Part shown: piece after piece, positions 17,822-52,902 of the stretch
Layout of the letters: every line of letters starts with the position of its first letter
Position numbering within the stretch: the first letter of the stretch is position 1
NCBI GenBank assembly: GCA_045635965.1
Contig: JAZTWQ010000004.1
Span: forward strand, 36,204 to 100,203
Source of the DNA: Candidatus Gastranaerophilaceae bacterium
Lineage (GTDB): Bacteria; Cyanobacteriota; Vampirovibrionia; Gastranaerophilales; Gastranaerophilaceae
Length of the DNA: 64,000 nucleotides
Reading direction: 5' to 3'
Translations under genes and position numbers: made by a program
The notes under the pieces: generated by a model
What the model was told of the DNA's origin: nothing
The model's database searches: none
Seen by the model: the letters and a program-made list of their open reading frames with translations, nothing else

Positions 17822-18523
17822 CTAATTTTTTCTACACGCTAGTAAAACTATATTATTAGGACGAACCTCATTTACATCTGGTTTATAAACAGAAGAATGA
17901 GCAGACGCTCTAAAAATAAGACTCATAAAGTCCCCACTACCGCCCCCACCAAGCCAACTGTTTGAAATAGTGCTATCTGAAAAAACACCTGTACGAGTCC
18001 TTGATCTGGTATTAAAAAGTCCCGCACGGCCTTCTAAATCAGGAACCGCAGACTCTTGATACGAGCCCAATGCTCGTCCGGAACCAGATTGGTTTCTGAT
18101 AAACGCATTTGCGGCGTTTGGATATTTTGAAGTTAACTCCGCCCAACCAGCAGGACAAGAACCTAAGTCAAAATACATAACCGCGCCAGAAGGGATATTT
18201 GTTTGTGTTCTTCTAAGTTCTTCTATTCTGCTATTCAACACTTGAACTTGCATATCATTCATACTATTATGTTTGATTTGACCAGCTATCATTGGCGCAG
18301 AATAACCCAAGATAAGACTACCAATCAACAATGCAATCATAGCTTCTGCTACGGAAAAAGCTCTCGTTTGGGTTAAACCAAGCCCTTGCGATACGAGGCT
18401 TTGCGGTGCTGAATTTTGTAGCATTAGACTTTGCGGTGCATCAGAACGACGCACTCTACCGTTCCCTAGCTTTTGCGATGCAAAAATTTGTATTCTTCTT
18501 TCTTTTATTGATTCTGATTTCAT
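17822..18523 (-). CDS. pilin-like protein, subfamily A (prepilin-type signal plus phage-tail-collar-like C-terminal domain)
   Basis: RA|FSVAEAMIALLIGSLILGYSAPMI (F-x-x-x-E plus hydrophobic helix). C-terminal part has GAVMYF..CPAGW, VPDLEGR, and ends NEVRPNNIVLLACRKN. Confidence 0.7.
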   Translation of the reverse strand: MKSESIKERRIQIFASQKLGNGRVRRSDAPQSLMLQNSAPQSLVSQGLGLTQTRAFSVAEAMIALLIGSLILGYSAPMIAGQIKHNSMNDMQVQVLNSRIEELRRTQTNIPSGAVMYFDLGSCPAGWAELTSKYPNAANAFIRNQSGSGRALGSYQESAVPDLEGRAGLFNTRSRTRTGVFSDSTISNSWLGGGGSGDFMSLIFRASAHSSVYKPDVNEVRPNNIVLLACRKN

Positions 18524-18588: not shown

Positions 18589-19109
18589 TTAACATTGCGC
18601 ACTAGACCTTACGACGTTAGACGTTGTAGCGATAAGCCTTTGTGTCGCTAGACCTTGTGGTGCGTATAAACGCCCCCTACCTGCCCTACCATTTGCGCAA
18701 AACGCTCTATCTTCACCATAATTAGGCGTCATGCCGAATTTTACCGATATCGTAGGCGAGAGCGTAACTCGAGCCATACGAGACAGGTATGCAGCCAGCT
18801 GGCTTTTAGCGTAAGCGTCAAAAGCTGCGTGCGTGCTATTTCGGCATCTGACCAATAAACAACGTAAGCTAGAAAGCAATTTATTGAATATTTTTCTATT
18901 AAAAAACATGCTAAAACATTCACTACATCCGTTTTCTGGATAGATGCCGAAACCAGTTCGGCATGACGGCTGATTTTTAACTTTTTTACCAGATTTTATT
19001 TTTAATTTTTTATCACGAACACTTATTTTTTGACCTACAGATGATCTCAGTGGGCTGTCAATCCCCCCCCCCCTAGTGTTATGCGGGTTTTAGCCGTTTT
19101 GTTTTTCAT
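18589..19109 (-). pseudogene. leader ORF of the pilin-like family, out of frame at a G11 tract (phase-OFF state or frameshifted)
   Basis: ATG at 19109 after AAGGA. MKNKTAKTRITL plus G11 runs into TGA. With G12 it would read through to the listed ORF 18589..18909. Confidence 0.55.
19063..19073 (-). repeat. coding-strand poly-G tract, 11 nt
   Basis: Counted directly: C11 on the plus strand. Confidence 0.95.
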
Positions 19110-19292
19110 AAATCCTTCGCCAATTTCTTGTCAACTTAATAAAATAGACTTACTTTTTACATTTAATTCATAGAAAATTATACTAAATTTCACCACATTA
19201 ATCAAGACTCAACTACTCAACAAATCCATGTATTAACACCTCTTGACAAATATGCTATAATAGTAGTAGATGGTCGAAACGAAAGGAGAACT

Positions 19293-23940: not shown

Positions 23941-24726
23941 TCAATCTTTCTCACATGCCAACAATAAAATCGATTTTGGTCTGTTTTCATTACCAACAAG
24001 AGGCATTTCTGACAAATATGGCAAATTATACTGGTTTCCAGTTGGTTTACATATAGTATCACCCTCATCACGATTTGGACAAGTTAAAACAGAATATAAT
24101 TTGGAACGAGTTCTCGATAAAGTTTCAGTTCTATTCATCCCATCACTGGTATACAAAAACCATTGATCATACGCAGCCTCTGTATATCCACCACCAGATA
24201 TAATATGAGTAGAACTAGTCTTCGCTGGGTAAGTGCCATCACCAACAGCGCCTACATCAGCGTTATAAGGAGCATAAGGTCCATAACGATGAGTATTAGA
24301 CATTGCATTAGAACTATGAGTAACAAAAGGTGAAACATGCTTATGCTTATGAACCATAGTTTCTAAAGTGTCGCCGATATTTTTATCGTCTACAATAACA
24401 CCAAGGTCGTTCACCTGTGCAATTCGCAGATAGTGCCCACCCATATTCTTAATTACAGACCACCCCTCAGGACAACTCGTACGCCTAAAAAACATAACAG
24501 CGCCAGACTCTACAGAGTCCCGTTCTTCTTGTGGTTGTTCTCGTATTTGCTCACGAAGTTGATCGATTTGTCGTTGCAATATTTGCATTTGAGTATTAGT
24601 CAAAGTTTCGTTTCTCAACTGACGAGAAATCATAGGAGCCGACATCCCAAGTGCAATTGTAGCTATCAACAACACAACCATCGCTTCGACCAAGGAAAAT
24701 GCATTTTCCTGCTTTAATTCTATCAT
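23941..24726 (-). CDS. pilin-like protein, subfamily A (prepilin-type signal plus tail-collar-like domain)
   Basis: NA|FSLVEAMVVLLIATIALGMSAPMI. Also GAVMFF..CPEGW, MVHKHKH, and ends NENRPKSILLLACEKD. Confidence 0.7.
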   Translation of the reverse strand: MIELKQENAFSLVEAMVVLLIATIALGMSAPMISRQLRNETLTNTQMQILQRQIDQLREQIREQPQEERDSVESGAVMFFRRTSCPEGWSVIKNMGGHYLRIAQVNDLGVIVDDKNIGDTLETMVHKHKHVSPFVTHSSNAMSNTHRYGPYAPYNADVGAVGDGTYPAKTSSTHIISGGGYTEAAYDQWFLYTSDGMNRTETLSRTRSKLYSVLTCPNRDEGDTICKPTGNQYNLPYLSEMPLVGNENRPKSILLLACEKD

Positions 24727-24914
24727 TTTAAATCCCTTCTATATTAATTTTAATGGTATAAATAATTTTCTTTCATTAACTTTGCTTGGATGGGTTTCAC
24801 CAAACCTGCGTTGTCCGTTCTTTCTATCTGCTTGGTAAAACCAACCCACATTTTTTAGTCCTTGCGGTGCGTCAAAACGACGCCCCCTACGGCTCTTAGC
24901 CCCACAATAACTAA

Positions 24915-24945
24915 GCGTCATGCCGAAATAAATTCGGCATGACGC
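24915..24945 (-). other. perfect 13-bp hairpin inside the leader ORF
   Basis: GCGTCATGCCGAA-ATAAA-TTCGGCATGACGC. Confidence 0.8.
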
Positions 24946-25040
24946 ATGATTTTTTGCTTTATCACTAGATTTTATTTTTAATTTTTCACCACGAACACTT
25001 ATTTTTTGCCCCGCAGAAGAATTTATCGGGCCGTCAATTG

Positions 25041-25046
25041 CCCCCC
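25041..25046 (-). repeat. coding-strand poly-G tract, 6 nt
   Basis: C6 on the plus strand, in the same leader context as the longer tracts. Confidence 0.9.
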
Positions 25047-25118
25047 TACAACCATGTGGGTTTTAGCCGTTTTGTTTCCCATAAAATTCTTCCTACCTTC
25101 TGGCGACCAATATAGAGA

Positions 25119-47009: not shown

Positions 47010-47565
47010 TTAATTCTTTACGCAACCTAACAAGGCAACTACTCGAGGGCGGTTTTCTTCCGACACTAAGCATTTACGCAGTACCAGTTGTATTATATTT
47101 TTTTGTTGAAGTATTGTAACTCAACACGGTGTAACTTCCCGCAAATCTTGGAAATCTACCCTGCCAACCAGCATCAATCAAACTCCAACCTTTAGGGCAA
47201 GGGTTTGTTTCTGATTCCACCACTACAGTGTTATTAAAAAATGCTACAGTTCCTTTTGGCACACCTCCACTTGAGTTTTTCAATGGTTCTATTTCTTGTT
47301 TTAATACATTATTTGATTCTACAAGTTTTTCTATTCTTCTGTTTATAATTTGCGCTTGCGCATCGCTATAATCATTGTGTTTTAATTGTTTTGTAATCAT
47401 TGGCGCAGAAAAGCCAAGCACCAAAGTCCCAATCAACAACGCAATCATCGTTTCTGCTACAGAAAAAGCCTTTATTGGTGTAGAATTTAGTCCTTGCAGT
47501 GCTAGCCCCTTCATCATTAGTCTTTGTAGCGTTAGACCTTCTGGTGCGTCAAAACGACGCACCAT
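47010..47565 (-). pseudogene. pilin-like protein, subfamily A, shortened and frameshifted near an A7 run
   Basis: KA|FSVAETMIALLIGTLVLGFSAPMI. The ORF stops at 47074. The family C-terminal signature (SEENRPRVVALLGCVKN*) is present in the +1 frame ending at 47010. Confidence 0.6.
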
Positions 47566-51909: not shown

Positions 51910-52714
51910 TTATTTAGAACATTTCTGCTTACCATTCCAGTTTAAATCATCACAGTGCAAATACTCCATATTACCTTTGTACACAACCCATGCTGCGCAC
52001 CCCCAACCTTCTTTATTTTTTCTACACGATGTATCAAAAGTATTAACCATTCCTTCACTACCAAAAGGGACTAGTTTATTATTTACAACAACTAAAGCAA
52101 AAACATCATGCCCCCATTTATTGGGTCCCCCTTGGTCCATTTGTATCTATAAAAGCAGTAATGTATGAAGTTTTATCACCTCTAAACCAAACAGAGGAAC
52201 CATCATTTAATATAATTTTGTAATAAAAATTTCCGCCGTGGTTTTCTGCATGATATTTTCCAATATTTTCCCCGTTTAAATAATAAAAATCGGCATCAGC
52301 AATACATTTTTTTGTATTTTCAAAACCACAATCTGTCGCTATTTTAAAATTATCTTTAATCATATTGTTATATATAATTAAAGCATCTTCTTTTGTAGCT
52401 CCTGTAATCCCCCAAGTATCGACATCTCCATATTCAACAACGGTTTTTTGATAAGCTTGGGACATAGTAGTGTAAAATTTTTTAACCTTATTAATTGTCG
52501 CTTGCTCAATATGTCTTTGATGAAGTGTTGGGATAGTCATAGCTGAAACAACTCCAATGATTGTTAAAGTTACCAAAACTTCAGCAAGCGTGAACGCTTT
52601 TTTATTAAATTTAAAGAAAGAACGATTAATTTTTTGATAGTTAGGAGAATTTAAACGGCACCCAAAGCCCCCCCCCCCTAGAAAATCAACGGTTTCAGCC
52701 ATTTTGTTCTTCAT
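51910..52714 (-). pseudogene. pilin-like protein, subfamily B, leader in frame (G11) but body split by a frameshift at a G5 run
   Basis: AAGGAG-N6-ATG at 52714. MKNKMAETVDFLGGGGFGC...NKKA|FTLAEVLVTLTIIGVVSAM. The two listed ORFs (52118..52810 and 51910..52140) join as FIDTNGPRGPNKWGHDVF if G5 (52127-52131) were G4. Confidence 0.65.
52668..52678 (-). repeat. coding-strand poly-G tract, 11 nt
   Basis: C11 counted on the plus strand. Encodes GGGG. Confidence 0.95.
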
Positions 52715-52902
52715 ACTTTTCTCCTTGTTTCTATGTTTAATGCGATTGTTTGTACCAGCTTTATAAACTTTGTGGGGTAAAACTGCACCTTTTGCTTTGT
52801 TGAGTTTCACTCAACCTATGTTTAATAATATATTATTTTTCAATTTTGAGCAAGAAGTTTGCATTTGATTTGATAAATTACAATTTTTAATACAAACAAA
52901 AA

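What the first reader, a model, noticed from the sequence alone, without database searches (positions are those of the whole stretch)
17822..18523. Subfamily A: prepilin-type N-terminus fused to a phage-tail-collar-like domain
The 17822-18523 and 23941-24726 proteins, and the degraded 47-kb copy, share the same layout. They start with A|FS(V/L)xE(A/T)M plus a hydrophobic helix, followed by a heptad-like segment (QVQVLNSRIEELRR; QMQILQRQIDQLREQIRE). Then come GAV(M)(F/Y)F...CP(A/E/K)GW, VPDLEGR (18 kb), MVHKHKH (24 kb) and a conserved end NE(V/N)RP..I(V/L)LLAC.K(N/D). The G-x-I-x-F...P-x-GW, LPDLRGR and H-x-H elements are the hallmarks of the Phage_Tail_Collar/MdpB-type domain. That domain is a receptor-binding fold in phage fibres. 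Placing it on a pilin-like anchor suggests a pilus-displayed adhesin module. I could not run a profile search, so the domain call rests on motif memory.
Basis: inference. Interest (0 to 1): 0.6.

Follow-up and report, generated by a model that had tools for sequence, protein, structure and literature searches.

The report
Pilin-anchored phage tail-fibre adhesin family
Two genes of an uncultured gut relative of cyanobacteria encode pilus-subunit anchors fused to the receptor-binding end of a phage tail fibre. They belong to a family of about 50 such genes in a 2-Mb genome, probably a switchable set of pilus-tip adhesins; the design is already catalogued but untested.

Summary
ORFs 17822-18523 and 23941-24726 (minus strand) and a broken copy at about 47 kb share one layout: an A|FSxxE prepilin-type N-terminus, a short heptad helix, then a C-terminal domain.

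Pfam PF07484 does not reach significance on either protein. Other evidence does:
- The 18-kb family profile hits the phage phiTE short tail fibre (E 1e-9) and T5-type L-shaped fibre sequences in the PDB.
- It hits PHROG tail-collar-fibre families (E 2.5e-5).
- Its AlphaFold model finds 20 viral tail-fibre, baseplate or collar models at E<=1e-3.
- The 24-kb family links to the 18-kb family (hhalign 99.6%) and to own-genome paralogues that do pass Pfam Collar.

One detail is wrong: VPDLEGR aligns with the post-collar DAIRNITG motif, not with LPDLRGR.

The genome (Gastranaerophilales, 2.0 Mb) holds about 53 such loci. It also has a PilD-type peptidase, a type IVa pilus cluster, and a Tad-like operon followed directly by a family member.

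Best reading: modular minor pilins, probably trimeric pilus-tip adhesins. The kind is known (Raynaud 2021 modular pilins; Milman 2023 PilV-collar fusion). This scan found pilin-collar fusions before, in Omnitrophota. New here are the scale of the expansion, the missing pilin head and the divergent domain.

The parts
17822..18523 (-). Gene 1 (233 aa): a 55-residue leader, then a mature 178-residue head-less modular pilin with a tail-fibre-type C-domain
   Evidence: ORF. The family has 84 homologues, all metagenomic and unnamed. Alignment is A5.
18359..18523 (-). Long leader peptide of gene 1 (residues 1-55, ending ..TQTRA), containing xxPQ(S/G)L pentapeptide repeats
   Evidence: Sequence; the GAAAGGA ribosome-binding site before the ATG is my reading of that sequence. 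Leaders of the same type are conserved in homologues P0056, P0085, P0116 and P0122.
18197..18358 (-). Pilin-type alpha-1 helix of gene 1: F1, E5, G13, P22, a hydrophobic stretch, then the amphipathic/heptad part QVQVLNSRIEELRR
   Evidence: Translation. Pfam N_methyl gives 12.4 bits, below the cut-off. The AF2 model is helical up to mature residue ~52.
17825..18196 (-). C-terminal tail-fibre/collar-type domain of gene 1 (residues 110-233: IPSGAVMYF..CPAGW .. RALGSYQESAVPDLEG .. NEVRPNNIVLLACRKN)
   Evidence: Family profile against PDB phiTE short tail fibre, E 1e-9. PHROG phrog_523, E 2.5e-5. BFVD Foldseek, 20 hits at E<=1e-3. pLDDT is 75-93.
23941..24726 (-). Gene 2 (261 aa): a 9-residue leader MIELKQENA, then a mature modular pilin with a divergent (HKHKH-type) tail-fibre-like C-domain
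   Evidence: ORF. Pfam N_methyl 21.3 bits against a cut-off of 21.2. 58 homologues, none with a Pfam domain. Alignments A1 and A2.
23944..24513 (-). C-domain of gene 2 (residues 72-261): GAVMFF..C85PEGW, GxYxRI, EtMVHKHKHV, RYGP, YTSDGMNR, CPNRDEGD, NENRPKSILLLAC258
   Evidence: hhalign to the 18-kb family 99.6% and to canonical Collar paralogues 87.9%. The top AFDB fold hits are almost all tail collar or tail fibre, but each is weak.
24337..24351 (-). H-K-H-K-H motif (residues 126-130), a candidate metal site on a three-fold axis
   Evidence: Nearly invariant in the family. It aligns with the MPxHxH motif of canonical collar paralogues. Metal binding is inferred from published T4 gp12/gp37 HxH sites (own knowledge).
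47013..47565 (-). Degraded third copy: the N-terminus and start of the C-domain are intact (ORF 47074-47565), followed by a ~65-codon deletion and a frameshift. The last 15 codons survive at 47013-47057.
   Evidence: tblastn of intact paralogues against the region.
18589..19109 (-). Upstream leader-like module with a poly-G tract and a hairpin/insertion, out of frame with gene 1
   Evidence: Sequence. The earlier notes e1-3943326 and e1-3943327 describe it. The same module is in frame in paralogue P0083.
24739..25082 (-). Upstream leader-like module with a G6 tract and a perfect hairpin, ending 12 nt before gene 2
Evidence: Sequence.

Best explanation
Both genes encode modular type IV pilins. 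The first part is a class-III (prepilin) signal and the pilin alpha-1 helix (F1, E5, P22). This runs into a short heptad helix instead of the usual globular pilin head. The last part is a 125-190-residue domain homologous to the distal collar-plus-tip domain of phage tail fibres and T4 gp10/gp12-type proteins.

Proposed mechanism:
- The genome's PilD-type peptidase cuts after the Ala at -1.
- The hydrophobic helix is extracted from the inner membrane by a type IV filament machine. Candidates are the PilB/PilC/PilQ set, or the Tad-like set that has a family member at its 3' end.
- Three copies associate through the helical stalk and the obligately trimeric fibre domain, and sit at the pilus tip. 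This is how the homotrimeric minor pilin CofB caps and primes type IVb pili.
- The variable middle of the domain binds a surface ligand, probably a glycan of another microbe or of host mucus.

The genome carries about 50 such genes with three types of C-domain and two stalk lengths. Many lie behind leader modules with slippage-prone tracts. Together they would form a repertoire of alternative tip specificities, comparable in outcome to the PilV shufflon.

Shown: the architecture, the homology, the family size and the presence of the machinery. Inferred: processing, trimerisation, tip location, adhesion and the ligand.
For: N-terminus:
- The A|FS(V/L)xEAM site, a hydrophobic stretch and SAP22M are present.
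- N_methyl scores 21.3 bits against 21.2 on gene 2.
- Weak GspH/ComGF/GspG/ComGC N-terminal hits, and geopilin/PilA N-terminal hits in the PDB.

C-domain:
- PDB sequence hit to the phiTE short tail fibre, E 1e-9 over profile positions 73-211, and to an L-shaped tail fibre at 2.7e-4.
- PHROG tail-collar fibre hits.
- BFVD gives 20 tail-fibre/collar/baseplate hits at E<=1e-3.
- AFDB cluster hits are named tail fiber, Gp10_C or tail collar.
- VIA-align gives T4 gp12 at 31% identity over 45 residues, rmsd 1.8.
- hhalign links A2 to A5 at 99.6% and A2 to A3 at 87.9%. The A3 paralogues pass Pfam Collar.

No pilin head: the AF2 model goes from the helix (to mature residue ~52) straight into the C-domain.

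Trimer precedents:
- The matching part of the phiTE fibre follows a trimeric coiled coil (PMC11972413).
- A CofB homotrimer sits at the T4bP tip (PMC6048534).

Machinery in the same genome:
- A24_N_bact plus Peptidase_A24.
- Secretin, MshEN-T2SSE and T2SSF on contig C2.
- RcpC, secretin, TadZ-like, T2SSE and two T2SSF genes on contig C15, followed directly by family member P0083.

Family scale: about 53 loci, at least 41 with both parts.

Related fusion: a distant hit, P0174, combines Shufflon_N (PilV) with this C-domain.

Published precedents: a PilV-collar fusion (PMC9881135) and modular pilins (PMC8179133).
Against: - No experiment of any kind exists; the organism is uncultured.
- Residue -1 is Ala rather than Gly, and gene 1 has a 55-residue leader (81 residues in P0083). 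That is far longer than any characterised prepilin leader, so cleavage by PilD is unproven.
- The pilin HMMs are at or below threshold (N_methyl 12.4 bits on gene 1; TIGR02532 10.7 against 16.3).
- Pfam Collar is not significant on either protein.
- Both AF2 models are mediocre (pLDDT 65 and 70), and no solved structure matched at a significant level.
- The heptad stretch is only 2-3 heptads long, with Ile/Met at 'a' and Leu at 'd', which does not by itself predict a trimer.
- The two window genes are not next to pilus genes.
- With about 50 paralogues, some could be filament-body subunits or not pilus-associated at all.
Confidence: 0.6

Rival explanations
1. Membrane-anchored or secreted fibre proteins that only borrow a pilin-like signal. 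The N-terminus would act as a signal-anchor, or as an export signal for a type II secretion-like or 'bindosome'-like route. The trimeric fibre domain would then work in the periplasm or on the cell surface without being part of a pilus.
For: - The leaders are very long (55-81 residues) with Ala at -1.
- There is no pilin head domain.
- The same C-domain superfamily occurs in other bacteria behind ordinary Sec-type signal peptides.
- Pilin HMMs are borderline.
Against: - F1, E5, G13 and P22 with the conserved SAPMIxKQ are exactly the features needed for filament packing and are nearly invariant across the family.
- One member sits at the end of a Tad-like pilus operon.
- A relative carries a genuine PilV shufflon N-domain.
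- In a diderm cell, an inner-membrane anchor with a 60-residue stalk could not reach the surface.
Confidence: 0.2
2. Alternative major or body subunits. Each paralogue would polymerise along the filament as a variant pilin whose head is the collar-like domain, giving antigenic variation rather than tip adhesion.
For: - In the short forms, the helix before the domain is ~52 residues, the same length as a canonical pilin alpha-1.
- The gene family is large and carries switchable leaders, as expected for antigenic variation.
Against: - All characterised relatives of the C-domain are trimeric fibre ends.
- Long-stalk paralogues have 155-190 residues before the domain, which cannot pack as a pilin head.
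- The genome has a second, equally large family of more conventional pilin-like genes (AFTLAEVL type) that are better candidates for body subunits.
Confidence: 0.1
3. Remnants of prophage or tailocin tail-fibre genes with a chance pilin-like N-terminus, with no function of their own.
For: - The C-domain is homologous to phage fibres.
- Several copies are broken.
Against: - No phage genes flank the window copies, which lie between tig and nadC and between zupT and ispG.
- The fusion is conserved with intact frames in 7 of 7 genomes of the genus and in many metagenomes.
- An invariant Cys pair and a conserved N-terminus indicate purifying selection.
Confidence: 0.03

Closest known systems
Modular type IV pilins (Raynaud et al. 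2021, PNAS, PMC8179133; e.g. Streptococcus sanguinis PilB = pilin + vWA, PilC = pilin + lectin)
   Same: A class-III signal and pilin N-terminus with a non-pilin binding module grafted on the C-terminal side. They are proposed to be tip-exposed adhesins. The paper reports more than 1,200 such proteins in 264 architectures.
   Different: PilB keeps a small globular pilin module joined to the extra module by a short loop. Here no pilin head is predicted, and alpha-1 runs into a helical stalk and then the fibre domain. The grafted module is an obligately trimeric phage-fibre end. The family has about 50 members per genome instead of one or two.
Shufflon PilV-phage tail collar fusion (UCP91044.1 in CP084655.1; Milman et al. 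2023, NAR, PMC9881135) and R64 PilV tip adhesins
   Same: A pilin N-terminus plus a phage tail collar domain, encoded with pilus genes and proposed to set pilus binding specificity. A relative found here, P0174, has Shufflon_N plus this very C-domain type. The outcome is the same: alternative C-terminal specificities.
   Different: No Shufflon_N domain is present in the window proteins, and I have no evidence of invertible segments (not tested). Diversity comes from many separate genes, apparently with repeat-tract switches, not from DNA inversion within one gene. The host is a gut melainabacterium, not a proteobacterial plasmid or ICE.
CofB / TcpB minor pilins of type IVb pili (Oki et al. 2018, PNAS, PMC6048534)
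   Same: A minor pilin whose C-terminal domains homotrimerise, sit at the pilus tip, prime assembly and mediate adhesion. This is the mechanistic precedent for a trimeric pilin-anchored binding module.
   Different: CofB has a full type IVb pilin fold plus beta-repeat and H-type lectin domains. There is no sequence or fold relation to the collar-type domain here, and CofB is one gene per operon.
Phage tail-fibre distal domains of the Collar / T4 gp12-gp10 type (Pfam PF07484, PF21939, PF14928; phiTE short tail fibre in PDB 9CUY; T5-type L-shaped fibre 8HQZ)
   Same: Shared sequence blocks: GxIxxF..PxGW, RALGSxQxxAxxNIxG, GAF, FDAS, and a terminal E-x-R-P-K-N-hydrophobic strand. An HxH motif is present in the 24-kb type. 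The domain follows a helical coiled coil, as in the phiTE fibre.
   Different: The window proteins fall below Pfam thresholds. They have an invariant Cys pair (CPxGW ... LLAC.K) that is absent from the canonical own-genome Collar paralogues (alignment A3). They lack any baseplate-attachment N-terminus, which is replaced by a pilin helix. The matching part of the phiTE fibre is not resolved experimentally: only residues 3-92 were modelled.
Pilin-tail-collar fusions noted earlier by this scan in Omnitrophota and an endosymbiont-type bacterium (e1-1190751, e1-1926837, e1-991951, e1-3881588)
   Same: The same two-part design and the same proposed role as a pilus-tip adhesin.
   Different: Those are single conserved genes inside pilus or secretion clusters of other phyla. 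Here the genes are dispersed among housekeeping genes, hugely amplified and restricted to one genus. I did not compare the sequences directly.

Membership tests
Type IV pilin / class III signal peptide proteins | Short polar leader ending in Gly (rarely Ala) at -1, and Phe/Met at +1 | tested here: inconclusive
   Both proteins have A|F. Gene 2 has a canonical 9-residue leader. Gene 1 has a 55-residue leader, which is outside the known range. Almost all of the ~90 pilin-like genes in this genome have Ala at -1.
Type IV pilin / class III signal peptide proteins | Glu at +5, a ~20-residue hydrophobic helix, and helix-breaking Gly14/Pro22 | tested here: met
   F1-S-V/L-A/V-E5, G13 and S-A-P22-M are present, and are nearly invariant in alignments A1 and A5.
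Type IV pilin / class III signal peptide proteins | Profile match (Pfam PF07963 N_methyl; NCBIfam TIGR02532) | tested here: inconclusive
   N_methyl scores 21.3 against a cut-off of 21.2 on gene 2 and 12.4 on gene 1. TIGR02532 scores 10.7 against 16.3.
Type IV pilin / class III signal peptide proteins | Globular alpha/beta pilin head packed on alpha-1C | tested here: not met
   AF2 models show helix, then the C-domain directly, with no four-stranded pilin sheet. Model confidence is moderate.
Type IV pilin / class III signal peptide proteins | Cognate prepilin peptidase and filament machinery present in the genome | tested here: met
   A24_N_bact plus Peptidase_A24 on contig C20. A PilQ/PilB/PilC-like set on C2. 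A Tad-like operon on C15 with a family member at its end.
Type IV pilin / class III signal peptide proteins | Actual cleavage, N-methylation and incorporation into a filament | not testable with these tools
   This needs biochemistry.
Pfam PF07484 Phage Tail Collar domain | Score at or above the gathering threshold (24 bits) | tested here: not met
   There is no hit at E<=1 by hmmscan on either protein. The six-frame scan gives 11.5 bits, E 0.68, over model positions 1-55 on gene 1. Paralogues L001 and L004 pass with 26.8 and 27 bits; L002 and L003 reach 23.8 and 23.6.
Phage tail-fibre distal (collar + tip) domain superfamily | Significant profile or fold similarity to bona fide phage fibre ends over most of the domain | tested here: met
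   Gene 1 family: PDB sequence hit at E 1e-9 over positions 73-211, PHROG at 2.5e-5, and BFVD with 20 hits at E<=1e-3. Gene 2 is linked only transitively (hhalign 99.6% to the gene 1 family; 87.9% to Collar paralogues), plus weak AFDB hits.
Phage tail-fibre distal (collar + tip) domain superfamily | Homotrimer, often with metal on the three-fold axis bound by HxH | not tested
   An HKHKH motif is present in gene 2 and absent in gene 1. No multimer prediction was available, so the trimer is an inference.
Shufflon PilV | Shufflon_N constant region (PF04917) and invertible C-terminal segments | tested here: not met
   There is no PF04917 hit on the window proteins. Only the distant relative P0174 has it. 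Inverted repeats flanking the genes were not examined.
Modular pilins (sensu Raynaud et al. 2021) | [quoted passage not shown] | tested here: met
   See the rows above. The definition is from PMC8179133.

The most novel reading that the evidence does not exclude
A 2-Mb gut melainabacterium devotes about 50 genes (roughly 2-3% of its coding capacity) to head-less pilin / phage-fibre chimeras. Each could be switched individually by slippage tracts in an exceptionally long leader. Its pili would then be tipped with a stochastic, phage-like 'host-range' repertoire used to attach to other microbes. That would point to an epibiotic or predatory lifestyle in Gastranaerophilales, like that of their relative Vampirovibrio.
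Probability: 0.2. Interest if true: 0.8.

Novelty: new variant of a known kind. Interest (0 to 1): 0.55.

Why it matters
Pilins that carry phage receptor-binding domains have been catalogued, but none has been studied. This genus offers the most extreme case seen so far: dozens of paralogues with three C-domain types and two stalk lengths in a tiny genome.

If they are trimeric pilus tips, three things follow:
- Bacteria would be shown to re-use phage host-recognition modules for their own cell-cell or cell-host attachment on a large scale.
- There would be an independent route to the binding-specificity variation that shufflons achieve by inversion.
- It would give a handle on the unknown ecology of human- and animal-gut Gastranaerophilales, namely what they stick to.

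There is also a practical point. The C-domain belongs to a wide family (478 representatives at E<=1e-3) that Pfam Collar mostly misses, and a new profile would improve annotation.

Tried and rejected
- **Pfam and NCBIfam on the two proteins.** No Collar hit. The weak Toxin_4, DUF6719 and DUF5339 hits were dismissed as noise.
- **Rfam and tRNA scans of the window.** Nothing found.
- **Single-sequence search of species genomes with gene 2.** No confirmed relative. The alignment-based scan worked and named the lineage.
- **Profile of the full-length 24-kb family against the PDB.** Only N-terminal pilin hits and a non-significant T4 gp12 C-terminal match at E 7.4.
- **Foldseek against the PDB with both models.** No significant hit.
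- **VIA-align against 48,161 chains.** Best Z was 3.5, on helices. gp12 and the Pa223 fibre reached only Z 2.9-3.0. Monomer models of intertwined trimers are probably the reason.
- **Gene conversion between paralogues.** I considered this as an explanation for the conserved N-terminus. The mean nucleotide identity of the first 150 nt is only 58%, so there is no sign of wholesale concerted evolution.
- **Prophage remnant.** Considered and rejected on genomic context.
- **Not done.** I did not follow up the poly-G / hairpin leader modules, which are covered by other notes of this scan, and I did not look for RNA-seq runs.

Full report
**What is there**

The window is AT-rich (about 33% G+C). It is contig C4:36204-100203 of a 2.0-Mb, 45-contig, 99.6%-complete genome. 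Related loci come from MAGs titled Candidatus Gastranaerophilaceae / Gastranaerophilales, so the organism is very probably a gut melainabacterium.

ORF 17822-18523(-) is 233 aa and lies between tig and nadC. ORF 23941-24726(-) is 261 aa and lies between a zupT-like gene and ispG. No phage or pilus genes flank either one.

**Observation**

The two proteins align at 40% identity over the first 89 residues (E 1e-21) and again at the C-terminus. HMMs of the C-domain alone cross-detect the other gene (2e-14 and 1e-19). hhalign of the two family profiles gives 99.6%.

The 47-kb copy is a true pseudogene. It has an internal deletion of about 65 codons and a frameshift, with the last 15 codons surviving at 47013-47057.

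**N-terminus**

After the A|F site both proteins have F1, E5, G13, a hydrophobic stretch and P22 (S-A-P-M), all nearly invariant in the families.

Pfam N_methyl just passes on gene 2 (21.3 against 21.2) and fails on gene 1 (12.4). NCBIfam gives only weak N-terminal pseudopilin and competence-pilin matches.

Gene 2 has a 9-residue leader. Gene 1 has a 55-residue leader with pentapeptide repeats, starting at an ATG with a good ribosome-binding site (my reading). Homologues conserve this long leader.

Ala at -1 is the rule in this genome.

**C-domain**

A six-frame scan gives only 11.5 bits on gene 1.

That same scan, however, found five paralogues elsewhere in the genome. They have the same N-terminus and canonical collar features: GTPDLRxRF, EQMPxHxH and ENRPPYYALxYIMK. 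Two of them pass the Pfam gathering score, and they score E 2e-26 against PHROG tail-fibre families.

The 24-kb family aligns to these paralogues by hhalign (87.9%, E 3e-6). This puts GAIMFF..CPxGW on GsImmWSG..IPxGW and EQMVHKHKH on EQMPxHxH.

For the 18-kb family the evidence is direct:
- Its profile (A5) hits the phage phiTE short tail fibre sequence in PDB entry 9CUY at E 1e-9 over the whole domain. It also hits a T5-like L-shaped fibre at 2.7e-4.
- The single protein hits PHROG tail-collar-fibre phrog_523 at 2.5e-5.
- Its AF2 model (pLDDT 70 overall, 75-93 in the domain) finds 20 viral predicted structures at E<=1e-3. All named ones are tail fibre, baseplate wedge or tail collar.
- AFDB clusters named tail fiber, Gp10_C and tail collar also come up.

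Solved-structure fold searches were not significant. The likely reason is that monomer models of intertwined trimers are distorted. The matching part of the phiTE fibre is itself unmodelled, since only residues 3-92 were built.

In the strong alignment, VPDLEGR corresponds to the DAIRNITG block that follows the collar, and YPNAANAFIRN corresponds to PDYRGLFLRG.

**Wider family**

A C-domain profile finds 478 representatives at E<=1e-3 among 1.84 billion proteins.

Of 78 distant ones:
- 7 carry Pfam Collar, 2 carry Gp10_C and 2 carry a T7 tail-fibre N-terminus.
- 9 carry N_methyl and 1 carries Shufflon_N.
- About a third carry the same AFSxAEA pilin start. Others have ordinary signal peptides.

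P0174 is a genuine PilV-type protein ending in this domain.

An invariant Cys pair (CPxGW ... LLAC.K) suggests a disulfide in an extracytoplasmic protein. This is an inference.

**Genome census**

Six-frame ORFs and four HMMs give about 53 loci with the subfamily-A N-terminus and/or a fibre-type C-domain. At least 41 loci have both.

There are three C-domain types: about 30 of the 18-kb type, about 11 of the HKHKH type and about 8 canonical Collar.

The distance from F1 to the PxGW motif falls into two classes, about 60-70 and about 155-190 residues. Sixteen loci sit at contig ends and several are split.

A second family of about 45 AFTLAEVL-type pilin-like genes also exists.

The expansion is genus-restricted. 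All 7 same-genus genomes have 3-28 matching pieces, against 63 in this genome. Other genera show at most a few weak matches (best E 1e-6 to 3e-12); the only ones listed cover just the N-terminal part of the profile.

**Machinery**

The genome has:
- a bifunctional PilD-type peptidase;
- a secretin / MshEN-T2SSE / T2SSF cluster;
- further PilT-size ATPases;
- a Tad-like operon (RcpC, secretin, TadZ-like, TadA-like and two T2SSF genes) followed immediately by family member P0083.

P0083 is the closest paralogue of gene 1 by N-terminal nucleotide identity (89%). Its 81-residue poly-G leader is in frame.

**Interpretation**

These are modular pilins in the sense of Raynaud et al. 2021 whose added module is a phage-fibre end. 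A PilV-collar fusion was reported by Milman et al. 2023. This scan has noted pilin-collar fusions in Omnitrophota.

The most likely mechanism is a homotrimeric tip complex, as shown for CofB, presenting a variable receptor-binding head. The large, apparently switchable gene set (notes; I saw the G tracts but did not analyse them) would give alternative specificities.

Processing, trimerisation, location and ligand are all inferred.

The rivals cannot be excluded without experiments. They are a non-pilus signal-anchor role, a role as body subunits, and a phage remnant. The last is unlikely.

**Verdict**

This is a known kind of protein in an unusual, highly amplified and structurally reduced variant. 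Interest is moderate.

Noticed in passing
window 18950-19110 and 24930-25085 (minus strand): A conserved module lies upstream of both genes: ..AAAACGGCTAAAACCC.., a G run (G11 and G6), ATTGAC.GCCC.., CAAAAAATAAGTGTTCGTG, then a GTCATGCCGAA..TTCGGCATGAC hairpin. It contains stops here, but in paralogues it is translated in frame as M..K.AKTRI.LGGGAIDSxLNSPxGQKI (for example P0083, with an 81-residue leader). Other notes of this scan already cover it.
   Followed up: partly
window 34665, 48347, 52597, 57599 (minus strand); genome-wide: There is a second pilin-like family, KKA|FTLAEVL(V/I)TLTIIGVVSA, with other C-terminal domains (ends such as ..CAAWVIEKGxMPWL, ..GYGCAYYVLxxxKMDY, ..DDYPW). I counted about 45 copies in the 2-Mb genome. 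Together with subfamily A, that makes roughly 90 prepilin-like genes.
   Followed up: partly
window 51910-52810 (minus strand): The subfamily-B gene at 52 kb looks split. ORF 52118-52810 ends ..FIDTNGPRGTQ, and the overlapping ORF 51910-52140 continues with ..GPNKWGHDVF.., which resembles the intact 48-kb paralogue. A frameshift is likely.
   Followed up: no
G000:C15:44198-51947 (locus L025 6198-13948): A Tad/Flp-like operon: RcpC-like, secretin with pilus N-domain, response-regulator-ParA (TadZ-like), T2SSE, and two T2SSF genes. It ends with a subfamily-A fibre-pilin gene. No Flp-type small pilin was seen among ORFs of 35 aa or more immediately upstream.
   Followed up: partly
hits (e.g. P0185, P0191, P0204, P0254, P0162): The CPxGW ... 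E(T/N)RPKN-ALL-C-K domain also occurs behind ordinary signal peptides and in very long multi-domain proteins (up to 2,660 aa with several copies) from other bacteria. Pfam Collar recognised only 7 of the 78 sampled. This looks like an under-modelled cellular branch of the tail-collar superfamily.
   Followed up: partly
genome G000, contig ends (C8, C12, C15, C19, C22, C26, C30, C32, C34, C36, C37, C41 and others): Sixteen fibre-pilin loci touch a contig end, so this gene family seems to be a main cause of the assembly breaks. The true copy number is therefore uncertain.
   Followed up: no
window 18371-18443 (minus strand): The 55-residue leader of gene 1 contains imperfect pentapeptide (15-nt) repeats, APQSL / MLQNS / APQSL / VSQGL. 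Homologues carry 2-5 such units (e.g. P0085), so leader length varies in frame.
   Followed up: no
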